Source: Alphaproteobacteria bacterium (GTDB taxonomy: Bacteria; Pseudomonadota; Alphaproteobacteria; Bin95). Taken from it: a stretch of 64,000 bases of DNA. Shown here piece by piece: positions 27,644 to 63,911 of this stretch. The stretch is taken from assembly GCA_964291285.2 (NCBI GenBank), contig OZ219787.1, positions 992,001-1,056,000 of the forward strand, read 5' to 3'. Below the pieces are notes generated by a model. It searched no databases. It worked only from the letters and a program-made list of their open reading frames with translations, and was not told where the DNA came from. Position 1 is the stretch's first letter. Each line of letters begins with the position of its first letter. Both the position numbers and the translations under genes were made by a program.

Positions 27644-27749
27644 GCTCTCCCCCTTCGCTGGACTGGTGCGATTATGCCGTCAGGCCCGGCCGTCCTCAAT
27701 CGGCGCCATGGCCGCGCCCTTTTCGTCACCCCGCATGAAGCCGCCCGGC

Positions 27750-27778
27750 TTGACACCGCGCCGTATGTTCCCTATATA
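27750..27778 (+). promoter_or_regulatory. Sigma70-like promoter upstream of HTH gene copy A
   Basis: TTGACA-N17-TATATA; an equivalent sequence lies at 63209-63236. Confidence 0.6.
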
Positions 27779-27992
27779 CCCCATTCCACTGAGAAAACAT
27801 GCTGAGAGAGGCCATGACCTGACGGACCGGCGGCGGTTGGCGCCGCGCTTGCGCAACACCCGATCCGAAGGCGCGGGAGCCGGCGGCCGGAGCCCTCGCC
27901 GGCAGACGGGCGAAGTGCGGCCGGGCGGCGCGGGTGTCGCGGCCGGGTTTGGCCGAAACGGGAACCGGAACGAGAGAAAAGGAGGAACGGCG

Positions 27993-28418
27993 ATGGACGG
28001 ACCTGTGGACGGATTGCCGGCGCGGCGGCCGGGCCGGGCGGTGGGCGAGGACCTGCGGGCGGCGGCGGTGGCGGCGGTGGTGCGCGAGGGCATGAGCCAC
28101 CGCGCGGCGGCGCGGCGGTTCGGCCTCGCGCTGAGCAGCGTCGGCAACTGGGTGCGGCGCTTTCGCGAGCGCGGCCATGTGCGGGCGGACCCGAAGGGCG
28201 GACCCGCCTCGCGGATCGAGCCGCACCGCGAGCGCATCCTGCGCATCCTGGCGGCGCGGCCGGGGCTTTCCATGTACGGGCTCCGCGACGCGCTCGCCGC
28301 CGAGGGGCTGGTCTTCCACCCGGCGACGGTGCAGCGCTTCCTCCTGCGCCACCGCCTGGAGCGCACCCGCCGCCTCGCCCGCCAGCGCCGCAAGCGCAAG
28401 CGGTGGACGGAGCGGTAG
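27993..28418 (+). CDS. IS630-transposase-type HTH protein without a DDE domain (copy A, 141 aa)
   Basis: GRAVGEDLR..AVAAV.EGMS..AAARRFG...W.RR.RE.G...P.L....LR..LAAEG...TVQRFL matches IS630 OrfA; AGGAGG RBS; no OrfB downstream. Confidence 0.78.
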   Translation: MDGPVDGLPARRPGRAVGEDLRAAAVAAVVREGMSHRAAARRFGLALSSVGNWVRRFRERGHVRADPKGGPASRIEPHRERILRILAARPGLSMYGLRDALAAEGLVFHPATVQRFLLRHRLERTRRLARQRRKRKRWTER

Positions 28419-28477
28419 CGGCGCGGGAGGCGGCAGGGGCGTGCCGAGAGGCCCTCCCCGGTCGCCGTCCTTCGAAA

Positions 28478-28578
28478 CCCTCATCCTGAGTAGCCGACCG
28501 GAGGGAGGCGTATCGAAGGACGGCTGCCGACGGAGCGATCCTTCGATACGCCGCGGGCGCGGCTACTCAGGATGAGGG
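28478..28578. repeat. REP/MITE-like palindrome (family CCCTCATCCTGAGTAGCCG)
   Basis: 19-bp perfect terminal inverted repeat plus inner GGCGTATCGAAGGA/TCCTTCGATACGCC; further copies at 62892-63140. Confidence 0.85.
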
Positions 28579-28635
28579 GGCCGGCACAGCCCGATTCACC
28601 GCCCCGGTCCCCAATCCCTGCCGGCCTCACGCATC

Positions 28636-29751
28636 TCAATCGCGCCCACAAAGGAGTGGTTCATCCACGATGCGCAACAGGCCGGCCCGGAGGTCAGAAG
28701 GAGGTCCGGCCAGATTCACGGTGGTGAACCGGAGAACATGGCCCTGGATCTGCGCGGCCTCGTCGACGGGGTGCTCCGTGGTCGGGTGAAGGAGTACGCC
28801 TTCGGCGAGCCGGGCGGACGGAGGAACGTCGACCTGGGAACGAAGGTAGGCGTAAATCTGGTAGAGGTGCCCGCTACGTAAGGTGTCTCGAAATTGGGCG
28901 GGTTTGAGCAGGGACGTGAACTTTGTGTCGATTACGATCTTTCGCCCGGTGTCCTTGTGAAACAGCTCGATGTCCGTCTCCATCCTGGGGAGGATTGCCT
29001 CAAGTCCATGCGTGCTGGCTTGGAGCGGCCAGTGAAGGACGCGCCCAGGTGAGACCGTCCAGCCTTGGTCCGAGAGGGCGACCCTGTAGAAGCCGTAGAC
29101 CGCGCGCTCGAAGAGCTTGCGAAGCCAATGCGGATCGCGGTCCGCCTGCGCCAGCAAGTGCTCGCCGCTGGTCTCGGTGGGCAAGGCGAGGTCGAAGGCC
29201 AGGCGGGCGACCGCGATCATGAAGCGGTCGTTGGCGTCATGGCGTCCGAAACGATCCGCGCTGACCTCAGGAGTCGAGGGCACTCGCCCGCCGACACCCA
29301 TTGCGCGGAGGTGCCGAGCGAGAGCCCGGCAGCGGTGCGCGAGGGGAGGTTTCGCAACTTCACGCGCGATAGCCTCCAGTGCGCCTCGGACATAGCGGTT
29401 GCGCGGCGTGTCGATGGTGAGGTCCTCGTAGCGGCACGCGACCTTGCCCAGTTGGATGAGTTGCCGGGACTCGGTGCGGAGGAGGTCGATGGTCCCACGC
29501 ACACGATCCAGGACGGCTGTTCGCGGTTCGTAGGCGCGATGGAGGTTTCGCCTCAACCGTTCTTCCACCGCGCGGGCGAGCAACTCGGCGATGAGGTCCG
29601 GGAGGTTGTCAGGCATCTTCTCGACGTCAAAACGGTCCGTGCCCCGCATCCGGAAGAAATCCGATGCGTAGAGCATAAGCAGCCAGACGTTGCGAAGTGG
29701 AATGCCGTTCGTCCCGGTGGCACGGGAGTTATGTTCGACCTTTGGATTCAC
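28636..29751 (-). CDS. mcrC: McrC-family restriction nuclease subunit
   Basis: IPLRNVWLLMLYA, DTPRNR, LFERAV, METDI...VIDTKF, HLYQIYAYL (PD-(D/E)xK); coupled to mcrB. Confidence 0.9.
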   Translation of the reverse strand: MNPKVEHNSRATGTNGIPLRNVWLLMLYASDFFRMRGTDRFDVEKMPDNLPDLIAELLARAVEERLRRNLHRAYEPRTAVLDRVRGTIDLLRTESRQLIQLGKVACRYEDLTIDTPRNRYVRGALEAIAREVAKPPLAHRCRALARHLRAMGVGGRVPSTPEVSADRFGRHDANDRFMIAVARLAFDLALPTETSGEHLLAQADRDPHWLRKLFERAVYGFYRVALSDQGWTVSPGRVLHWPLQASTHGLEAILPRMETDIELFHKDTGRKIVIDTKFTSLLKPAQFRDTLRSGHLYQIYAYLRSQVDVPPSARLAEGVLLHPTTEHPVDEAAQIQGHVLRFTTVNLAGPPSDLRAGLLRIVDEPLLCGRD

Positions 29752-31604
29752 CAGTCGTCAAGCAGGCGGTCCCGCTCCTGTCTGGCGCGATCGGGATCGT
29801 CGAACCAGTACTCCTCAAGCAGCGGCGCAAGCTCTGTCTCGACGACGTCGCGGAACCAGCCATTGACGTTATCGGGATCGAGTCGGGCGGCGGGTGTCAC
29901 GTAGCTGTGCCCAACGCAGAACTGTTCACCCAGAGACTTCGCAATCGCCTCGTTGAGCACCCCCATGCGGCTTTGGATGTCGTCTGCAGCATCCGTGTCG
30001 ATTCCCAGTTGCTCTGTGACCCACCGGTGCCAGGCTCTGTCAATCCTCGGCTTGAGGGTGGCGAACGCGAAGCGCCGACGCAGAGCCAGGTCGACGAGCG
30101 CGAGGGAGCGATCCGCGATGTTCATGGTGCCGATGACATAGAGGTTCCCAGGGACATGGACGCGCTTGGTTTCGTCTCCGGTCGCGTAGGAAAGTTCCAG
30201 CGCCTCTTCTTCGGACCGCTTATCCGCTTCGAGCAGCGTGATGAGTTCCCCGAAGATCTGGGCGGGATTGCCGCGATTGATCTCTTCTATGACCACTACG
30301 AACGGCGTCTCGTCGGTGGAAGCCGCCTCGACCGCGCGAAGGAAGATGCCCTTCGTTAGTTCGAGCCCGCTTGCGGATGGGCGCCAGCCGAGAACGAAGT
30401 CCTCGTAAGACAGGGTCGGATGGAACTGCACGCTACAGATGCGTCCGCGGTCTCGGCGGCCTATCAACGCGTAGGCAAGACGTTTGGCCAACCAGGTTTT
30501 GCCGGTTCCCGGCGGGCCTTGGAGTACGAGGTTCTTCTTGGTTTCCAGTCTGTTGAGAAGTGTGTCGAGTTCACTACGATCCAGAAAGCAGCCGTCCTCC
30601 AGAATGGAGGCTACAGTGTACGGCGGTTCGGTTTGTAGTTCGGGGAGGGGCGGGAGAATACCGACGGCTCGCTTGAGGTCATTCACGAGGTCGGGATAGC
30701 CCGACACGTCGGTGAGGGTCTTGGTCACCAGCGGCTTGTCCCGGACGTGGACGCCACCAGGGAAGTTGGAGTGCCAATCGACATCGCGCACGTTCTTGTA
30801 CTCTGGACGGGCAGAGTCGAAACGGTAAGCGGAGGTTACTGTGCCGTGGCCAATTACGCCGCTAGTTCCGAGCTTCGCGAAAATGGTGTCGCCCGGTCTC
30901 ATGTCGTGACAGAACTGCCAGCAGGCCAGCGAGTCGTTTCGGCCAAGGTCTATAACCTCTCGACTCTCATACCCGGTGATGTCGCCAATGTGGTCCCAGC
31001 CCAGACAAGCGATGCCTTCGCGTCGGCACTCGTCCCAATACCTAGCCCCTGGACCGAGCGCCATCAGCCAGTAACGAGGTTCGGCATTGGGCTCGACTTC
31101 CAATTGCCGGTCCAAGTCGTCGGCTTCAGTGCGTACATCGACTAGCAGGAAAACGGTCGAGAGGAACTGCTCTACGCCGGCAGGATTCCTGGGAACGGGG
31201 ATGGCCACGCGCGAGTCCACGAACGGCAGGCCCCGTTGCGTAGCGAGTGCGTCGAACCTCTCTCTTCGTTCGGGGTTGCGTCCGTCGCGCTTTGCGGGCC
31301 GATAGGCCCAACGCAACTGGTCGTCGCGGATTTCGTGTGTCTCGAACAGGATGCCGGAACGATTAGCCTCATATGCGATCAGATGAAATCGCGAGGGGTG
31401 GTTGTACGACCACTGGATGAGGAGCAGATATAGTTCGCTCGTGTCAGAGGAAATACGGAATGCGCCAACGCAGTCCTTTCCGTCAGCCCAGTCGTGGAAG
31501 GCGACGAGCGGTGTCTCGAGTTGCTCTTCGAGGCGGAACGAGTCGGAATCACGCAGGCCTGTTCGAACGAGCTGGCTGATCTGTTCGGCGGTGTCGCGAT
31601 CCAA
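29748..31604 (-). CDS. mcrB: McrB-family AAA+ GTPase with an extended N-terminal region
   Basis: LQGPPGTGKT, VQFHPTLSYEDFV, IEEINRGN, GTMNIADRS, ALRRRF; lower GC than the flanks; TTG start. Confidence 0.9.
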   Translation of the reverse strand: MDRDTAEQISQLVRTGLRDSDSFRLEEQLETPLVAFHDWADGKDCVGAFRISSDTSELYLLLIQWSYNHPSRFHLIAYEANRSGILFETHEIRDDQLRWAYRPAKRDGRNPERRERFDALATQRGLPFVDSRVAIPVPRNPAGVEQFLSTVFLLVDVRTEADDLDRQLEVEPNAEPRYWLMALGPGARYWDECRREGIACLGWDHIGDITGYESREVIDLGRNDSLACWQFCHDMRPGDTIFAKLGTSGVIGHGTVTSAYRFDSARPEYKNVRDVDWHSNFPGGVHVRDKPLVTKTLTDVSGYPDLVNDLKRAVGILPPLPELQTEPPYTVASILEDGCFLDRSELDTLLNRLETKKNLVLQGPPGTGKTWLAKRLAYALIGRRDRGRICSVQFHPTLSYEDFVLGWRPSASGLELTKGIFLRAVEAASTDETPFVVVIEEINRGNPAQIFGELITLLEADKRSEEEALELSYATGDETKRVHVPGNLYVIGTMNIADRSLALVDLALRRRFAFATLKPRIDRAWHRWVTEQLGIDTDAADDIQSRMGVLNEAIAKSLGEQFCVGHSYVTPAARLDPDNVNGWFRDVVETELAPLLEEYWFDDPDRARQERDRLLDDW

Positions 31605-31754
31605 GGGACCAATCTCCGAGGTTGTAGAATGCTCGAACGCCTCTGTAGGCGTCTCTGCGTGCGGGCGGCAGTCTATCCCACTCCGTAACGGCCGGCCGCC
31701 GCTCCATTTCTTCGCAGGCTCGTTCGCGAGGGTGACCGGGCTCGGCTCATGCCA

Positions 31755-32564
31755 TCAGGCCAGGACGTCCTCGACCAGCACCATGACGGCGCCGTTGTTG
31801 TGGGCCCGGCCGACGAAGGCCCGGCCGCGGGCGTCGCGGCCGACGGGGACGCCGTTCGCTTCCATGAGGCGGACGGCGCGGCCGGGGTCGGCGAAGGCGA
31901 TGACCTGTCCCGCCATGCAGGGCAGGGGCGGGGCGGCCTCGCCGGGGAACAGGGCCGCGAATTCTCCGGCGGAGAGCGCCGCAAAGCCGGCGGGGGCCGC
32001 GCCGGAGGCGGCGAGCCGGGCCGCAAGCTCGTCCGGCCGGTCGGAGACGAACAGGCATTGCCGGAGCGCGACGGCACCGTTCGGATGCCCCAGCAGTTCC
32101 GGCCGCCAGAGCACCTCCGGCGTCTGGTGCTCGATGACGATGATCCGGCCCTCCGGCCAGCTTGCGTCCTCGGAGAAGATGTTGCGGAAGCGCATCTCGC
32201 CCGCCGGCGTCGGGCGGGCGCGCTGCACCGGCGGCCGGAAGCCCTGCGCCGCCAGGCCCGGCCACGCCTCGTCCGCCGAGTGGCAGCGGAAGGCCGCGAT
32301 GTGGATGCCTTCATGCCGTGCCATGAAATGCGACCACGGGTTGAAGCGGTGGGGCGCGCGGATGCCGATCAGCTCCAGATAGCCCTGGCGGAAGAGCGCG
32401 CAGCGGTTGGCGGTGGCCCAGGGCCGCATGCCGTCCTCGCCCGGCACCGCGCCCTGCTGCGGCGTTTCCGGGGAGAGCAGGAAGCCCAGCCGCTCCAGCG
32501 CGGCGGCGCCCGCATCGAGGTCGGCGCGCATCTGGCCGGTATGGTCGAGGGGCCAGGCCGCCAT
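31755..32564 (-). CDS. VOC/glyoxalase-like protein
   Basis: LDH...DL......RLGF, TANRCALF..GYLELI, HPNGAVAL. Confidence 0.78.
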   Translation of the reverse strand: MAAWPLDHTGQMRADLDAGAAALERLGFLLSPETPQQGAVPGEDGMRPWATANRCALFRQGYLELIGIRAPHRFNPWSHFMARHEGIHIAAFRCHSADEAWPGLAAQGFRPPVQRARPTPAGEMRFRNIFSEDASWPEGRIIVIEHQTPEVLWRPELLGHPNGAVALRQCLFVSDRPDELAARLAASGAAPAGFAALSAGEFAALFPGEAAPPLPCMAGQVIAFADPGRAVRLMEANGVPVGRDARGRAFVGRAHNNGAVMVLVEDVLA

Positions 32565-35552: not shown

Positions 35553-36317
35553 ATGTCCGCAGCCGGGTCCGTCGTTCTGACCGAGCAAAGGGGCGCGGTG
35601 CGCCATATCGTGCTCAACCGGCCGGAGGCACTGAACGCGATCGACGACGCCCTGGTCCCCGCGCTTACACAGGCGTTCCGGGACGCCAACGCCGATGCCG
35701 GGACGCGCGCCATCGTCTTCCGGGGCGCGGGACGGGCCTTCTGCGCGGGCGCGGACCTCAAGGCGCGGAAGATCGCGGGAAGCGAAGCCGCGGCGCGGGC
35801 GCGGGCGCAGGCGATCCAGGACGTCACGCGCGCCATCGTCTTTGGCGACGTGCCGGTGGTCGGCGCGATCCACGGCTGGGCGGTCGGCGGCGGCTTCGAA
35901 TGGGCGCTCAATTGCGACTTCCCGATCTGGGCCGAGAGCGCGCGGGGCTTCTTCCCGGAAGTGTCCTGGGGCCTGTTCGTCACCGGCGGCGTCTCGGCCA
36001 TCCTGCCGAACCTGATCGGCCTCCAGAAAACCAAGGAACTGCTGATGCTGGGCGAACGCTACGATGCGGCGGCGCTCCACGAGCTCGGCATCGCCTGGCG
36101 CGTGGCGGCCGACGATGCGTTGCTCGTGGAAGCGGAAGCCGTGGCCGAACGGCTGGCGGCGCTTCCGGTGCGCGCCGTCCGCGACATGAAGCGCACCCTC
36201 AACCGCGCCGCCTACGGCGATGTGGCGGAGGCGATGGAGCGCGAGGTGGACGCGGTGGCGCGCTCATACAACGACCCCGAGACCTTCGAACGGATCGCCG
36301 CCTTCAGCGACCGCTGA
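35553..36317 (+). CDS. Enoyl-CoA hydratase/isomerase family protein
   Basis: LNRPEALNA, GRAFCAGADL, HGWAVGGGFE, FFPE. Confidence 0.92.
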   Translation: MSAAGSVVLTEQRGAVRHIVLNRPEALNAIDDALVPALTQAFRDANADAGTRAIVFRGAGRAFCAGADLKARKIAGSEAAARARAQAIQDVTRAIVFGDVPVVGAIHGWAVGGGFEWALNCDFPIWAESARGFFPEVSWGLFVTGGVSAILPNLIGLQKTKELLMLGERYDAAALHELGIAWRVAADDALLVEAEAVAERLAALPVRAVRDMKRTLNRAAYGDVAEAMEREVDAVARSYNDPETFERIAAFSDR

Positions 36318-36741
36318 AAGCGCTGTCCGGGTCCGTCAGCGCCTGGAGGCGCAGTCCCGCCATGCGCGCAAACCGCGTGATGAGCGACTTGCGCCGCGCC
36401 GGGTTGAGCCGGCCTTCCTCCGGTTCGCGCAGCAGCTCCGCGCCGAAGCCGTCCGCGACCAGCAGGCCGCAGCCCTCCGGGATCAGATGCCTGGGAAACT
36501 CTTCCGGGACGGCGAAATAGAACGCATCGCAGAAGGCCGGATAGTCCTGCCACTTGGCGTCCGCGCGGAAATCGGCTTCGGAGGACTTCACCTCGACGAC
36601 GGCAATGCGGCCGTCCTCGGCGATCGCGATCACGTCCACGCGGCGGCGATTGCGCAGGGTGAATTCGGTCAGCACCGCATAGCCGGCGTGGCGCAGGAAC
36701 CGGCACACGCCGCGCGCGAGGAGGACACCGTCGTTCTTCAT
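36304..36741 (-). CDS. mmcB: MmcB-family DNA repair nuclease
   Basis: LARGVCR, EFTL..RRRVDV, VEVKSSEADFRADAKWQDY, FCD.FYFAV. Confidence 0.85.
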   Translation of the reverse strand: MKNDGVLLARGVCRFLRHAGYAVLTEFTLRNRRRVDVIAIAEDGRIAVVEVKSSEADFRADAKWQDYPAFCDAFYFAVPEEFPRHLIPEGCGLLVADGFGAELLREPEEGRLNPARRKSLITRFARMAGLRLQALTDPDSAFSGR

Positions 36742-36745
36742 ATGT

Positions 36746-37789
36746 TCAGATTAGCCGATCCTTGCCGTCGAGCGCAAGCCGGACGACCTTCTTCATGGCC
36801 GTAGGCAGGGCGTAGCCGTCGAGAGCGTCGATGGGCGCCCAGACGCAACCCTCGGGCGGGGCGGCTGCGCTCCTGCCGGTGCGCACGTCCAGTTCGAGGA
36901 TGAAATGCGTGAAGCCGTGCCGGGCGACGGCGCCGAGCGGCTCCCATGCCCCTTCGACCGGCGGGGCCTCGGGCGGCAGGCCGTCTTCGACCCAGGGGCC
37001 GGAGGGCACTTCCATCATGCCGCCGAGCAGGCCGCTCTCCGGCCGGCGGCGGAGCAGCACCCGCCCGGCGCCGTCCTCGGTCCAGTAGGCGATGCCCCGC
37101 CGCACCGGGCGCCGGCGCTTCGGGGCCTTGACCGGCAGGCTTTCGGCAGTCCCGGCCGCCCTGGCGAGGCAGTCCTTCGACCAGGGGCAGACGCCGCAGC
37201 GGGGACGGCGCGGCAGGCACACCGTCGCGCCGAGGTCCATGACCGCCTGCGCATAGTCGCCGGGGCGCGCCTCCGGGGTCAGGCTCGCCGCCGCGTCCCG
37301 GATCGCCTTCTTCGCGGCGGGCAGCGGCGTCTCGATGCGGAAGAGGCGCGCCATCACCCGCTCGACATTGCCGTCCACGACGGTCGCCTTGCGGTCGAAG
37401 GCGATGGCGGCGATGGCGGCCGCGGTGTAGGCGCCGACGCCGGGCAGGGCGCGCAGGCCGGCCTCGCTGTCCGGGAAGCGCCCGCCATGCTGCGCGGCGA
37501 CGATGCGGGCGGCGGTGTGCAGGTTGCGCGCCCGGGCGTAATAGCCGAGCCCCTGCCATGCCTGCAGCACCTCGTCCAGCGAGGCGGCGGCAAGCGCCCC
37601 GACATCGGGCCAGCGCTCAAGGAACCGGTGGAAATAAGGGCCGGCGGCCGCGGCCACGGTCTGCTGCAGCATGATCTCGCTCAGCCACACCCGATAGGGC
37701 TCCGCGCGCTCGCCCGGCGGCGCGCGCCAGGGCAGCTCGCGGCGATGCGCGTCGTACCACGCAAGCAGCGCCTCCGCCTTCGCCTTCAT
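36746..37789 (-). CDS. mutY: A/G-specific adenine glycosylase
   Basis: VWLSEIMLQQT, WQGLGYYARARNL, LPGVGAYTAAA, VDGNVERV, Fe-S cysteines. Confidence 0.95.
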   Translation of the reverse strand: MKAKAEALLAWYDAHRRELPWRAPPGERAEPYRVWLSEIMLQQTVAAAAGPYFHRFLERWPDVGALAAASLDEVLQAWQGLGYYARARNLHTAARIVAAQHGGRFPDSEAGLRALPGVGAYTAAAIAAIAFDRKATVVDGNVERVMARLFRIETPLPAAKKAIRDAAASLTPEARPGDYAQAVMDLGATVCLPRRPRCGVCPWSKDCLARAAGTAESLPVKAPKRRRPVRRGIAYWTEDGAGRVLLRRRPESGLLGGMMEVPSGPWVEDGLPPEAPPVEGAWEPLGAVARHGFTHFILELDVRTGRSAAAPPEGCVWAPIDALDGYALPTAMKKVVRLALDGKDRLI

Positions 37790-62858: not shown

Positions 62859-62891
62859 CGGGCATCGAGCCTGTTCGGCGGGATGCAGGCG

Positions 62892-63140
62892 TCCTTCGAT
62901 ACGCGCCCCCTTCGACTGGCTCAGGACAGGCTGCTGGCGCGGTCGCTACTCAGGATGAGGGAAGGAGGACCGCGGCCGCGCGCCCGGAGCCGGCCCGCGA
63001 GGGCGCCCCCCCTTCGACACGCTCAGGGCAGGCTTTCCCTCGTCCTGAGTAGCCGACCGGAGGGAGGCGTATCGAAGGACCGCTCCGCCAGCCGCCCGCC
63101 ATCCCTCGATACGCTGCTGCGCGGCTACTCAGGATGAGGG
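62892..63140. repeat. Cluster of REP/MITE-like palindromes
   Basis: Full copy at 63037-63140 nearly identical to 28478-28578; half copy at 62892-62961; two CCCTTCGAC..GCTCAGG.CAGG units. Confidence 0.85.
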
Positions 63141-63208: not shown

Positions 63209-63236
63209 TTGAAATAATCCCCAAATGTTCTATATT
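63209..63236 (+). promoter_or_regulatory. Sigma70-like promoter upstream of HTH gene copy B
   Basis: TTGAAA-N16-TATATT in an AT-rich patch, preceded by ATGTTC as in copy A. Confidence 0.55.
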
Positions 63237-63470
63237 TGTATCGAAGACGGCTACACCGGAGCCCGTGAGGCCATGACCTGAACGACTGGCGGCGGCTTGC
63301 GCCGCGCTCGATGCAAAGCTGGAACGCCGGCGGCCGGAGGGGCCGGGTGGCGGCGGGCAGGCGTGCGCGCACGGCGCAGGCGGCTCGCAATCGGGTTCGG
63401 TGGAAACGGGCCGTCAGTCGCAATCGGGTTCGTCAGGCGCGGGAGCGGAGATGGAAGGGGAGGAGACGGG

Positions 63471-63911
63471 ATGACGGATGGATCGACAGGCGCCCCGGCG
63501 GGCGATTTGCGGCTGCGGCAGCAGGGCCGGGCGGTGAGCGAGGACATGCGCCGCCATGCGGTGGCGGCGGTGCTGCATGAGGGCATGAGCAGACAGGCGG
63601 CAGCGCGGCGGTTCGGCGTGTCGGCGAGCAGCGTCGCGCTGTGGGTCCGGCGCTATCGGGAGCGCGACGACCTGCGGCCCGACAAGCCGGGCGGCAGCGC
63701 TTCGCGGATAGAGCCGGAGCGCGGGCGCATCCTCCGCATTCTGGCGGCACGGCCGAATCTGACCATGTACGAGTTGCGCGACGCGCTCGCTGCGGAAGGC
63801 GTGTCATTCCATCCGGCTACGGTGCAGCGCTTCCTGGAGCGCCACGGCCTGGACCTGAAAAGCCGCCGCGCCGCCCGCGCCCTCCATCGCAGCCGGCGAC
63901 GCGCCCGATAG
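63471..63911 (+). CDS. IS630-transposase-type HTH protein without a DDE domain (copy B, 146 aa)
   Basis: 79/109 identical residues, ungapped, to copy A by manual alignment; GGAGGAG RBS; no OrfB. Confidence 0.78.
   Translation: MTDGSTGAPAGDLRLRQQGRAVSEDMRRHAVAAVLHEGMSRQAAARRFGVSASSVALWVRRYRERDDLRPDKPGGSASRIEPERGRILRILAARPNLTMYELRDALAAEGVSFHPATVQRFLERHGLDLKSRRAARALHRSRRRAR

What the first reader, a model, noticed from the sequence alone, without database searches (positions are those of the whole stretch)
27750..28418. Stand-alone IS630-derived HTH genes with a conserved ~200-nt leader (two paralogous loci): candidate domesticated DNA-binding protein plus RNA module
Seen: 27993-28418 and 63471-63911 encode intact 141 and 146 aa proteins, 79/109 identical without gaps over the core. 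Each has a strong RBS and an Arg-rich tail. Neither has a DDE OrfB, an A-rich frameshift run or evident IS ends. Both sit about 215-235 nt behind a sigma70-like promoter. The leaders share collinear blocks: GAGGCCATGACCTGA (27808-27822 / 63267-63281), a GCGGCG-N5-CGCCGC hairpin with an invariant stem and a changed loop, GCCGGCGGCCGGAG (27879 / 63326) and CGGGTTYGG..GAAACGGG, with divergent sequence in between. Known: this fold is the DNA-binding OrfA of IS630/Tc1 transposases, normally joined to a catalytic domain. Inference: divergence with intact frames and block-wise leader conservation fits selection rather than IS decay, i.e. a transposase-derived regulator family with a structured cis-RNA or partner RNA.
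Basis: partly seen in the sequence, partly recalled or inferred. Interest (0 to 1): 0.8.

Follow-up and report, generated by a model that had tools for sequence, protein, structure and literature searches.

The report
SOS-boxed transposase-derived HTH gene family
The two small genes belong to a family of about forty fast-evolving, catalytically dead descendants of a transposase DNA-binding domain, most with a predicted DNA-damage (LexA) switch and a conserved leader holding a two-codon mini-gene, a set-up that seems undescribed.

Summary
It is far larger than two loci. The genome holds about 42 stand-alone paralogs of 112-160 aa, and 14 of 16 other genomes of this uncultured alphaproteobacterial genus hold 2-35 copies.

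Each unit is self-contained:
- a sigma70-like promoter overlapped by a GTTC-N7-GTTC box, the same motif found before lexA, imuA-like, SRAP and mmcB-like genes;
- a mini-ORF (mostly ATGACCTGA);
- a leader of about 210 nt with conserved blocks;
- a strong SD and a paired-type HTH gene.

No unit has a DDE domain, terminal inverted repeats or target duplications. The leader is unlike the left ends of the nearest DDE-bearing IS630 elements, which are 41% identical in the HTH part.

The reading frame is under selection: 74 of 80 CDS indels are multiples of three, against 42 of 212 in leaders. Constraint is relaxed, with ML omega 0.28-0.33 against 0.07 for lexA.

Units come and go between species about 90% identical in flanking genes. 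A structured RNA is not shown; the covariation tests were weak.

Best reading: an SOS-controlled, domesticated DBD-only family with a cis-regulatory leader. The targets of the proteins are unknown.

The parts
27750..27778 (+). Locus A promoter: -35 TTGACA (27750-27755), 17-nt spacer, -10 TATATA (27773-27778)
   Evidence: Read. Not called by the scan tool, because the last -10 base is A. Homologous to the family promoter.
27767..27781 (+). Locus A degenerate LexA-type box GTTC-CCTATAT-ACCC. The first half-site is perfect; the second has 3 mismatches.
   Evidence: Family consensus TGTTCTATATAaGTTCC. Orthologs in other genomes carry GTTC-N7-ATTC.
27814..27822 (+). Mini-ORF ATG ACC TGA behind the purine-rich GAGAGAGG
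   Evidence: 74 of 113 anchored units carry exactly this 9-mer, and all 113 have an in-frame TGA after 2-4 codons.
27830..27846 (+). Hairpin-forming GCGGCG-GTTGG-CGCCGC just after the mini-ORF
   Evidence: Covariation support is weak.
27879..27892 (+). Conserved leader block GCCGGCGGCCGGAG
   Evidence: CCGGCGGCCGG (1 mismatch or fewer) occurs in 52/114 leaders against 33/570 random genomic windows.
27912..27962 (+). Locus A version of the AGGTGCG(CGCG) block, followed by the CGGGTTTGG..GAAACGGG module
   Evidence: GGTGCGCGCG with 1 mismatch or fewer in 57/114 leaders against 28/570 controls.
27993..28418 (+). Gene A: 141-aa paired-type bipartite HTH protein with an Arg-rich C-terminal helix; SD AGGAGG at 27980-27985
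28440..28585 (.). REP-like palindromic repeat (CTACTCAGGATGAGG / GTATCGAAGGA type) just downstream of gene A
   Evidence: 116 such clusters in the genome, and 11 of 42 units have one within 400 nt downstream.
27722..31748 (.). 4-kb segment (unit A + REP + McrC-like + AAA_5 McrB-like genes) that is absent at the syntenic site of genomes G010 and G007
63209..63241 (+). Locus B promoter TTGAAA-16-TATATT, with the overlapping box GTTC-TATATTT-GTAT (63227-63241; 2 mismatches in the second half-site)
63273..63281 (+). Locus B mini-ORF ATGACCTGA
63289..63339 (+). Locus B hairpin GCGGCG-GCTTG-CGCCGC (63289-63305) and block GCCGGCGGCCGGAG (63326-63339)
63385..63431 (+). Tandem direct repeat TCGCAATCGGGTTC, two copies 33 nt apart, private to this leader
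   Evidence: with 1 mismatch or fewer it occurs only twice in the 6.1-Mb genome, both times here.
63471..63911 (+). Gene B: 146-aa paralog; SD GAGGAG at 63460-63465

Best explanation
Both loci belong to a genus-restricted, multi-copy family of self-contained transcription units. Each unit encodes a catalytically dead protein that keeps only the DNA-binding domain of an IS630/Tc1-type transposase (a paired-type bipartite HTH plus an Arg-rich tail).

Shown:
- The proteins stand alone, keep their reading frame and evolve fast.
- Each gene carries its own promoter and a conserved 5' leader.
- In most members a GTTC-N7-GTTC box overlaps the -10. The same motif precedes lexA, recA (one mismatch), imuA-like, SRAP and mmcB-like genes in this genome.

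Inferred mechanism:
- LexA keeps most units off, and DNA damage releases them.
- The transcript starts about 25-30 nt before a 2-4 codon mini-ORF (Met-Thr-stop; always TGA, mostly TGAC). Ribosome occupancy of this mini-ORF, together with the GC-rich leader that follows, tunes how much full-length mRNA or translation of the strongly SD-led HTH gene results.
- The protein then binds DNA. Targets may be the copy-specific repeats in its own leader (autoregulation) and/or IS-like targets.

The window's own two members have weakened boxes (A 3 mismatches, B 2 mismatches in the second half-site). They may be only weakly controlled by LexA, or not at all.
For: Family and stand-alone state:
- The genome holds 44 tblastn places, 42 of them ORFs of 112-160 aa at 40-73% identity to A.
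- 14 of 16 other genomes of the genus have 2-35 copies. None were found in 8 genomes of two sister genera.
- All 70 loci from 185,579 species' genomes lie in records titled MAG: Alphaproteobacteria bacterium, except one weak hit.
- Pfam HTH_23/HTH_28/PAX match. The NCBIfam IS630 profile matches only its positions 1-130 of 299.
- AF2 pLDDT is 82.5. Best folds are the Pax5/Prd/Pax6 paired domains, then SETMAR, Mos1 and Tc3 DNA-binding domains.
- The nearest DDE-bearing proteins are 38-41% identical over the HTH part and carry DDE_3.
- The 32 DDE_3 places in the genome belong to near-identical true IS copies, none fused to a unit.

Selection:
- CDS indels: 74 of 80 are multiples of 3. Leader indels: 42 of 212.
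- An SD precedes 110 of 114 genes.
- ML omega is 0.326 (12 sequences). In the same six genomes it is 0.282 against 0.067 for lexA.

SOS box:
- The lexA promoter carries GAACCAATATAGAAC in G000; in six genomes it is conserved, A or G at one spacer position.
- Of 20 perfect GTTC-N7-GTTC sites with AT-rich spacers in the genome, 10 are family promoters.
- Others precede lexA, an S24 LexA-like gene, an ImuA-like gene (NF033429, E 5e-16, below cut-off), SRAP (PF02586, E 2e-64) and an MmcB-like gene (PF06319, E 9e-48). recA has a one-mismatch box.
- 72 of 114 anchored units have a box with 1 mismatch or fewer, 42-49 nt before the mini-ORF.
- GTTCN7GTTC is listed as the Caulobacter SOS box (PMC9578287, Table 1; passage read).

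Leader:
- Identity among six orthologs is 0.86 in the 5' leader and 0.87 in the CDS, against 0.40 in the flanks.
- Mini-ORF statistics are and block enrichment.
Against: - No expression data exist: no RNA run holds the locus.
- LexA binding is inferred from motif sharing only. The box spacer doubles as the -10, so part of its conservation is promoter conservation.
- 42 of 114 anchored units have 2 or more mismatches. These include both window loci and a whole subclade with a different promoter.
- Naive NG86 dN/dS is 0.74 (median of 9,726 pairs). It is about 1.1 for A against its closest ortholog (dN 0.063, dS 0.057), while the neighbouring acyl-CoA dehydrogenase gives 0.126. Constraint on the protein is therefore weak or partly diversifying.
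- RNA structure is unproven.
- The mini-ORF set was defined by a sequence pattern, so its 113/113 in-frame stops are partly circular. Its SD-like stretch lies only about 2 nt from the ATG.
- Tandem repeats near the SD occur in only 27 of 141 units (13 of 14 matches or better).
- No DNA target of the proteins is known.
Confidence: 0.6

Rival explanations
1. The units are a new kind of selfish or mobile gene cassette (promoter + leader + DBD-only gene, often with a REP-like element). They spread or are exchanged within the genus rather than serving the host. SOS control would time their activity.
For: - A-type orthologs in five genomes share homology only from the -35 to the stop codon, and their flanks are unrelated.
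- Of 35 relatives' units whose flanks are colinear in G000, 18 sites are unoccupied, 13 of them with 130 nt or fewer between the flanks.
- Copy number ranges from 0 to 40 within one genus.
- dS of gene A against its G006 ortholog (0.057) is lower than that of the neighbouring gene (0.178).
- REP-like elements lie within 400 nt downstream of 11 of 42 units, against about 1% for random windows.
- Unit A lies inside a 4-kb indel with an McrBC system.
Against: - No terminal inverted repeats, no target-site duplications and no recombinase in the unit.
- At least one unoccupied site is a deletion remnant that keeps a perfect-box promoter (C1:958205).
- Copies are divergent rather than near-identical, unlike active elements.
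- No match in 50,697 phage records, and only IS630 transposases below 47% identity on plasmids.
Confidence: 0.2
2. One reading: the leader is a structured cis-RNA or partner RNA that works with the protein, for example by binding the Arg-rich tail to leader hairpins.
For: - The 5' leader is as conserved as the CDS.
- Conserved blocks are shared by paralogs only 45-70% identical in protein.
- The hairpin after the mini-ORF is formable in 86% of cells, against 43-55% when partners are slid. Many G-U/A-U alternations appear on the sense strand.
- An Arg-rich C-terminal helix is predicted.
Against: - RNAalifold found no consensus pairs on 30 leaders.
- Only 1 of 22 pairs had a compensatory change on 15 leaders, and the covariation term was unfavourable (+0.26).
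- In one search the covariation score (0.174 against 0.144) was reached by 23 of 500 shuffles, and 2 pairs with double changes by 84 of 500.
- The MFE of the 50 nt after the mini-ORF has mean z -0.46. It is no stronger there than 45 or 90 nt further on.
- No Rfam match even at E of 1 or below.
Confidence: 0.25
3. The genes are decaying remnants (solo OrfA pseudogenes) of IS630 elements, and the shared upstream sequence is the old IS left end.
For: - The HTH part is homologous to IS630 transposases.
- NG86 dN/dS is near 0.74.
- A few copies are damaged (stops in 2 of the 30 best own-genome matches; one frameshifted C-terminus).
- Other IS elements have inserted into some leaders.
Against: - 74 of 80 CDS indels keep the frame.
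- 131 of 143 unique units encode 125-165 aa.
- ML omega is 0.28-0.33.
- An SD is present in 110 of 114.
- The left ends of 72 P0121-like IS630 elements have 0 boxes, 0 mini-ORFs and one marginal 34-nt similarity.
- The resident 1,169-bp IS630 ends do not match the leaders.
- In other genera the related HTHs sit in ordinary IS630 copies with DDE (23 of 26 loci) and have no such leader.
Confidence: 0.05
4. The GTTC-N7-GTTC repeat in family promoters is bound by the HTH proteins themselves (a shared autoregulatory operator), not by LexA.
For: - Paired-type domains bind bipartite sites.
- The repeat is the most conserved promoter feature across paralogs.
- More distant stand-alone paralogs without the long leader also have it.
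Against: The same motif, including a similar TATAT-rich spacer, sits before lexA in six genomes and before other classic SOS genes. It equals the published alphaproteobacterial LexA box.
Confidence: 0.1

Closest known systems
IS630 / Tc1-mariner transposases (nearest found: P0121-like IS630 elements of soil metagenomes)
   Same: The N-terminal bipartite paired-type HTH is homologous (41% identity over residues 20-135, including the WVRRFRERG motif). The stand-alone proteins end about where the DDE_3 domain begins.
   Different: No DDE_3 domain, no terminal inverted repeats, no TA duplication. Copies are divergent instead of near-identical. The long leader with LexA box and mini-ORF is absent from 72 such IS left ends.
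DBD-only regulators encoded by insertion sequences
   Same: A transposase DNA-binding domain expressed without a catalytic domain. Such proteins bind IS ends and repress.
   Different: Those proteins are encoded inside an active IS beside the full transposase. Here there is no cognate element in the genome, and the genes have their own promoters and leaders.
Domesticated eukaryotic Tc1/mariner/pogo DNA-binding domains (Pax paired domain, SETMAR, CENP-B)
   Same: The fold matches: Pax5, Prd and Pax6 paired domains rank first, then SETMAR, Mos1, CENP-B and Tc3. The concept of a host-retained transposase DBD also matches. PMC7386202 was seen as a search listing only.
   Different: This case is bacterial, multi-copy (up to 40 per genome), fast-turnover and SOS-boxed. 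No fusion to other domains.
Alphaproteobacterial LexA regulon (Caulobacter SOS box GTTCN7GTTC)
   Same: The same direct-repeat box overlaps the promoter (PMC9578287 Table 1, passage read).
   Different: Half of the perfect boxes with AT-rich spacers in this genome (10 of 20) belong to one paralogous family of unknown function rather than to repair genes.
Leader mini-ORFs / start-stop elements and leader-peptide attenuators (recalled)
   Same: A very short ORF, conserved as start + 1-3 codons + stop, sits in a long 5' leader before GC-rich hairpins. In one clade a hairpin followed by a T-run follows it.
   Different: No amino-acid-sensing codons, and no demonstrated alternative structures or terminator. 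Translation is untested.

Membership tests
IS630-family insertion sequence / transposase | N-terminal bipartite HTH DNA-binding domain | tested here: met
   Pfam HTH_23/HTH_28/PAX. The NCBIfam IS630 profile matches positions 1-130 of 299, below the cut-off (49 and 68 bits against 100). 41% identity to the HTH part of a DDE_3-bearing protein.
IS630-family insertion sequence / transposase | DDE_3 catalytic domain, in the same protein or an adjacent OrfB | tested here: not met
   No DDE match in either protein. The 32 DDE_3 places in the genome are separate IS copies. A 'longer' search with protein A alone found none. The profile found only three longer proteins, at 38-49% identity.
IS630-family insertion sequence / transposase | Terminal inverted repeats and TA target duplication; near-identical copies | tested here: not met
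   Homology among orthologs runs only from the -35 to the stop. Junctions of 8 indels were inspected, and the 5 where both flanks aligned showed no TSD or TIR. Copies are 40-73% identical. The resident IS630 ends are unrelated to the leaders.
LexA (SOS) regulon | GTTC-N7-GTTC box at the promoter | tested here: inconclusive
   Family: 29 perfect and 43 one-mismatch boxes among 114 anchored units. Window locus A has 3 mismatches and locus B has 2, both in the second half-site.
LexA (SOS) regulon | LexA binding and induction by DNA damage | not testable with these tools
   No RNA run lists the locus. The organisms are uncultured MAGs.
Paired-domain fold | Two three-helix subdomains joined by a linker | tested here: met
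   The AF2 model has helices 19-60 and 76-119 plus a C-terminal helix 124-140. Foldseek top hits are 1k78_A, 1pdn_C and 6pax_A (E 5.5e-4 to 3.3e-3, TM 0.38-0.48).
Any described RNA family (Rfam 15) | Covariance-model match in the leader | tested here: not met
   0 matches at gathering score on the whole window and 0 at E of 1 or below on both leaders.
uORF / leader-peptide attenuator | Conserved short ORF with start, stop and SD in the leader | tested here: met
   113 anchored units have 2 codons (76), 3 (4) or 4 (33), and all end in TGA. Three kinds of in-frame insertion (3 or 6 nt) keep the frame. Purine fraction is 0.82 upstream, and an SD-like tetramer occurs in 73 of 114. Caveat: the set was picked by a pattern.
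uORF / leader-peptide attenuator | Mutually exclusive RNA structures or a terminator controlled by the uORF | tested here: inconclusive
   A hairpin follows in all clades, but covariation is weak. A T-run follows it in only one clade. One sequence shows compensatory changes for an alternative pairing (read by eye).
IS-encoded DBD-only repressor (InsA/OrfA type) | Encoded within an IS that also encodes the cognate transposase | tested here: not met
   No cognate element was found. The nearest true IS630 HTH in the genome is 36% identical over 71 residues.

The most novel reading that the evidence does not exclude
The family is a bacterial counterpart of transposon-derived repressor arrays. It would be a fast-diversifying, SOS-triggered battery of DBD-only 'decoy' proteins. 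Each would be tuned to the ends of a different incoming IS630/Tc1-like element or other invader. They would be switched on when DNA damage or incoming single-stranded DNA signals mobile-element activity, and gated by a translated start-stop mini-ORF in a new type of leader. Alternatively, the units are themselves a new class of self-propagating cassette without a nuclease.
Probability: 0.15. Interest if true: 0.85.

Novelty: new variant of a known kind. Interest (0 to 1): 0.62.

Why it matters
Transposase DNA-binding domains kept by the host are well known in eukaryotes. In bacteria, orphan 'transposase HTH' ORFs are usually dismissed as IS debris.

Here one such domain has expanded to about 40 intact, divergent copies per genome. 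Each copy is insulated as its own unit. The family accounts for half of the perfect SOS boxes with AT-rich spacers in the genome.

If LexA control is real, the largest block of this organism's predicted DNA-damage regulon has an unknown function. The conserved two-codon mini-ORF in a leader of about 210 nt may be a compact regulatory device that can be tested with reporters.

The rapid gain and loss of units, without transposon hallmarks, also poses a question about how they move.

Tried and rejected
- RNA evidence: the look-up of sequencing runs listed three holders, none on record as RNA ('no RNA holder listed').
- RNA structure:
  - RNAalifold on a 30-sequence MAFFT alignment across clades gave no pairs, probably in part because hairpins were misaligned.
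  - Clade-level tests gave weak covariation.
  - MFE z-scores and positional MFE comparisons showed nothing special about the hairpin after the mini-ORF.
  - I did not build a covariance model. An alignment fitted to the structure would have leaned towards it.
- Conserved neighbours: tblastx of 3-kb flanks of 42 units found only IS copies, one segmental duplication (g35/g36) and REP-like repeats.
- Trans targets: the tandem-repeat words of nine leaders were searched genome-wide. B's word and g08's occur essentially only in their own leaders. The GC-rich or short words have many hits that I take for chance. No regulon emerged.
- PADLOC gave 0 families for A and B. PHROGs gave only transposase-type HTH hits.
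- IS ends: neither the resident IS630 nor the P0121-like IS630 left ends resemble the leader.
- A first iqtree codon run on 32 sequences hit the time limit. It was repeated with 12 and with 6 sequences.
- Literature searches found no paper describing LexA-boxed stand-alone IS630-type HTH families. This covers the held library only, and supplements were not consulted.
Full report
OBSERVATION.

The window is 68% G+C alphaproteobacterial DNA (G000, contig C3:992001-1056000; genome 6.13 Mb in 5 contigs).

The two ORFs are real. They span 27993-28418 (141 aa) and 63471-63911 (146 aa), each behind a strong SD. They are 67% identical (86/128, E 2e-53).

The promoter of B is called by the scan tool (TTGAAA-16-TATATT, 63209-63236). 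That of A (TTGACA-17-TATATA, 27750-27778) is seen by eye only, because the tool requires T at the last -10 position.

WHAT THE PROTEINS ARE.

- Pfam gives HTH_23, HTH_28, HTH_psq and, for B, PAX.
- The NCBIfam IS630 and IS481 transposase profiles match only their N-terminal 110-130 positions, far below cut-off.
- An AlphaFold model built on 29 paralogs (pLDDT 82.5) shows two three-helix bundles and a C-terminal Arg-rich helix.
- Foldseek ranks the Pax5, Prd and Pax6 paired domains first (E 5.5e-4 to 3.3e-3). SETMAR, IstA, Mos1, Tc3 and CENP-B DNA-binding domains follow.
- A profile search among longer proteins found three relatives with a DDE_3 domain. The best, P0121 (313 aa), is 41% identical over residues 20-135 of A, and its DDE_3 starts at residue 145.

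The family therefore descends from the DNA-binding half of an IS630-type transposase. It stops about where the catalytic domain would begin.

IT IS A LARGE FAMILY, NOT TWO LOCI.

- The genome holds 44 tblastn places. 42 of them are ORFs of 112-160 aa with 40-73% identity to A, nearly all with a strong SD.
- In 40 relatives, 14 of 16 other genomes of the same genus have 2-35 matches. Two have none. No match was found in 8 genomes of two sister genera, and one weak match (1e-16) appeared in another family.
- A pattern scan of one genome for each of 185,579 species returned 70 loci. All lie in records titled 'MAG: Alphaproteobacteria bacterium', apart from one weak partial hit.
- The protein database holds 252 relatives of similar length. 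Those that are named are called 'helix-turn-helix domain-containing protein' or 'transposase'.
- True IS630 elements also live in this genome: 32 DDE_3 places, mostly near-identical 341- and 367-aa ORFs, with a 1,169-bp element defined. They are separate from the units, and their HTH is only about 36% identical.

ANATOMY OF A UNIT.

Aligning 89 unique leaders gives this order:
- cTTGAC..(17)..TGTTCTATATAaGTTCC.
- About 40 nt ending in a purine-rich stretch.
- ATGACCTGAc.
- A GC hairpin of variable sequence.
- gcCGGCGGCCGG.
- aC.GG.gAgGTGCGc.CGc.
- A variable part, sometimes with tandem 24-35-nt repeats.
- GGAGGAG and then ATG.

The distance from the mini-ORF to the gene start is 210 nt at the median (range 52-358).

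Across six genomes the A-type orthologs share homology only from the -35 to the stop codon. Identity by region is as follows:
- Promoter 0.75.
- 5' leader 0.86.
- Mid leader 0.79.
- 3' leader 0.73.
- CDS 0.87 (third codon positions 0.84).
- Flanks 0.40.

No conserved neighbouring gene exists. REP-like palindromes lie within 400 nt downstream of 11 of 42 units.

THE BOX.

The motif overlapping the -10 is GTTC-N7-GTTC, which a review lists as the Caulobacter SOS box (PMC9578287, Table 1; passage read).

In this genome:
- lexA itself carries GAACCAATATAGAAC, conserved in six genomes with one spacer position A or G.
- recA has a one-mismatch box.
- The genome has 20 perfect sites with an AT-rich spacer. 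Ten are family promoters.
- Five of the other ten sit before lexA, an S24 LexA-like gene, an ImuA-like gene (NF033429, E 5e-16, below cut-off), an SRAP gene (PF02586, E 2e-64) and an MmcB-like gene (PF06319, E 9e-48; window 36307-36741).

Among 114 unique units anchored on the mini-ORF, 29 have a perfect box and 43 a one-mismatch box. Nearly all of these boxes lie 42-49 nt upstream of the mini-ORF ATG.

Against this:
- 42 anchored units have two or more mismatches.
- One subclade uses a different promoter.
- The window's own loci are weak. A has GTTC-N7-ACCC and B has GTTC-N7-GTAT.
- Part of the box's conservation is simply the -10.

More distant stand-alone paralogs in this genome (g38, g39, g40, g42), which lack the long leader, also carry one-mismatch boxes.

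Their relatives in other genera are ordinary IS630 copies. 23 of 26 loci have a DDE part on the same strand. They have typical left ends of about 105 nt and no promoter box. The three one-mismatch hits there lie on the opposite strand, at or next to the element's terminal CTAGAGC motif.

THE MINI-ORF.

- Of 113 anchored leaders, 76 have two sense codons, 4 have three and 33 have four.
- All end in TGA, 81 of them as TGAC.
- 74 are exactly ATGACCTGA.
- The longer forms look like three independent in-frame insertions of 3 or 6 nt.
- Codon 2 varies among ACC, ACG, ACT and ATC.

This fits a translated start-stop element. The set was chosen by a pattern, though, and the SD-like GAGG sits only about 2 nt from the ATG. 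Translation is an inference.

SELECTION.

- Naive Nei-Gojobori dN/dS is high: median 0.74 over 9,726 pairs.
- For A against its closest ortholog, dN is 0.063 and dS 0.057.
- The adjacent acyl-CoA dehydrogenase in the same genome pair gives dN 0.022, dS 0.178 and omega 0.126.
- A codon model that accounts for the extreme GC3 bias (GY+F3X4) gives 0.326 for 12 A-clade sequences.
- In the same six genomes it gives 0.282 for the HTH against 0.067 for lexA.

The reading frame is clearly protected. In 76 nearest-neighbour pairs, 74 of 80 CDS gap runs are multiples of three, against 42 of 212 in leaders. Indels are four times denser in leaders. 131 of 143 unique units encode 125-165 aa.

The genes are functional but weakly constrained or partly diversifying. 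The variable positions include the starts of both predicted recognition helices. This last point is read by eye and was not tested.

TURNOVER.

Genomes G010 and G007 share about 90% identical flanking genes with G000. At the site of unit A they join the acyl-CoA dehydrogenase upstream region directly to the 3' end of a glyoxalase-like gene.

G000 has an extra 4 kb there (27722-31748). It comprises unit A, a REP-like element and a McrC-like plus AAA_5 McrB-like pair. Imperfect direct repeats of about 45 nt bracket it (27674-27718 and 31749-31793).

83 units of relatives had usable flanks:
- 35 have both flanks colinear in G000.
- 17 of those sites hold a unit in G000 and 18 do not.
- 13 of the 18 have 130 nt or fewer between the flanks.

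Eight junctions were inspected. At five of them both flanks aligned, and none of those showed a target duplication or inverted repeat. One empty site keeps a perfect-box promoter stub, so it is a deletion.

Other IS elements have landed in at least four leaders.

IS THE LEADER AN RNA MODULE?

Sequence conservation argues for function, but structure is unproven.
- RNAalifold found no consensus on 30 leaders.
- It found 22 pairs with one compensatory change on 15 leaders.
- For the hairpin after the mini-ORF in 17 leaders, 86% of cells pair, against 43-55% when partners are slid.
- In the same test, covariation was reached by 23 of 500 shuffles, and double changes by 84 of 500.
- Folding energies are only slightly below shuffles (mean z -0.46). 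They do not differ by position.
- Rfam has nothing.

Tandem repeats before the SD are enriched: 27 of 141 units against 4 of 423 shuffles, at 13 of 14 matches or better. Where tested they are private to their own leader. That would suit copy-specific binding sites, but they are present in only a minority of units.

CONCLUSION.

The 'domesticated transposase DBD with a conserved leader' reading is broadly right. The 'structured RNA' part is open.

The main additions are the scale of the family, its SOS-type box, the mini-ORF, the relaxed but real selection, and the rapid gain and loss of units without transposon hallmarks.

Function is inferred. The units are most likely damage-induced DNA-binding proteins, probably autoregulated. 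They could act on mobile DNA.

No expression data could be obtained, and the organisms are uncultured.

Noticed in passing
window 27722-31748 (repeats at 27674-27718 and 31749-31793): A 4-kb insertion relative to genomes G010 and G007. It carries unit A, a REP-like element and a McrC-like (PF10117) plus AAA_5 McrB-like gene pair. It is bracketed by imperfect direct repeats of about 45 nt that duplicate the 3' end of the glyoxalase-like gene 31755-32564.
   Followed up: partly
window 28440-28585 and 62890-63140; genome-wide: A REP-like palindromic repeat family (CTACTCAGGATGAGG / GTATCGAAGGA words) with 116 clusters in the genome. 11 of 42 HTH units have one within 400 nt downstream, against about 1% for random windows. 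A second REP type (CCGGGGTGACG-like) also abuts some units.
   Followed up: partly
window 36733-36747, upstream of 36307-36741 (-): A perfect GTTC-N7-GTTC box (GTTCTTCATATGTTC) lies in front of an MmcB-like DNA-repair gene (PF06319). It is a likely SOS gene inside the window.
   Followed up: yes
G000 C1:958124-958252: A deletion remnant of a unit. The family-type promoter with a perfect box and a degenerate mini-ORF remains, but the gene is gone. G012 and G009 have a full unit at this site.
   Followed up: partly
G000 C3:950090-951424, C3:1167453-1168941, C2:1043907 region, C3:2121719: Other insertion sequences have landed inside leaders, between the promoter/mini-ORF and the HTH gene. Two leaders (g05, g07) carry the same IS end.
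   Followed up: no
G000, e.g. C3:200171, C3:952730, C4:702420: A resident IS630 element of 1,169 bp with ends starting ATACCAGCGG, in more than a dozen near-identical copies. A second type has a 367-aa ORF. Both are unrelated to the unit leaders.
   Followed up: partly
units g13, g15, g16, g17, g21, g25, g35, g36 (G000) and relatives: A subclade whose promoter reads TTGCAA/TTGATT ... TAAATA/TATATT, without a recognisable GTTC-N7-GTTC box, although the mini-ORF and leader are kept.
   Followed up: no
gene A against its G006 ortholog (L034): Synonymous divergence of the HTH gene (0.057) is three times lower than that of the adjacent acyl-CoA dehydrogenase (0.178). Non-synonymous divergence is three times higher (0.063 against 0.022). 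This is unexplained. Possible causes are recent exchange, gene conversion or nucleotide-level constraint.
   Followed up: no
clade g04/g06/g20 and relatives (alignment A5): In the four-codon mini-ORF variant, the 6-nt insertion creates a small hairpin that pairs the SD-like AGGGCC with UGGNCCU and encloses the AUG. The following GC hairpin is succeeded by a T4-5 run, which looks terminator-like.
   Followed up: no
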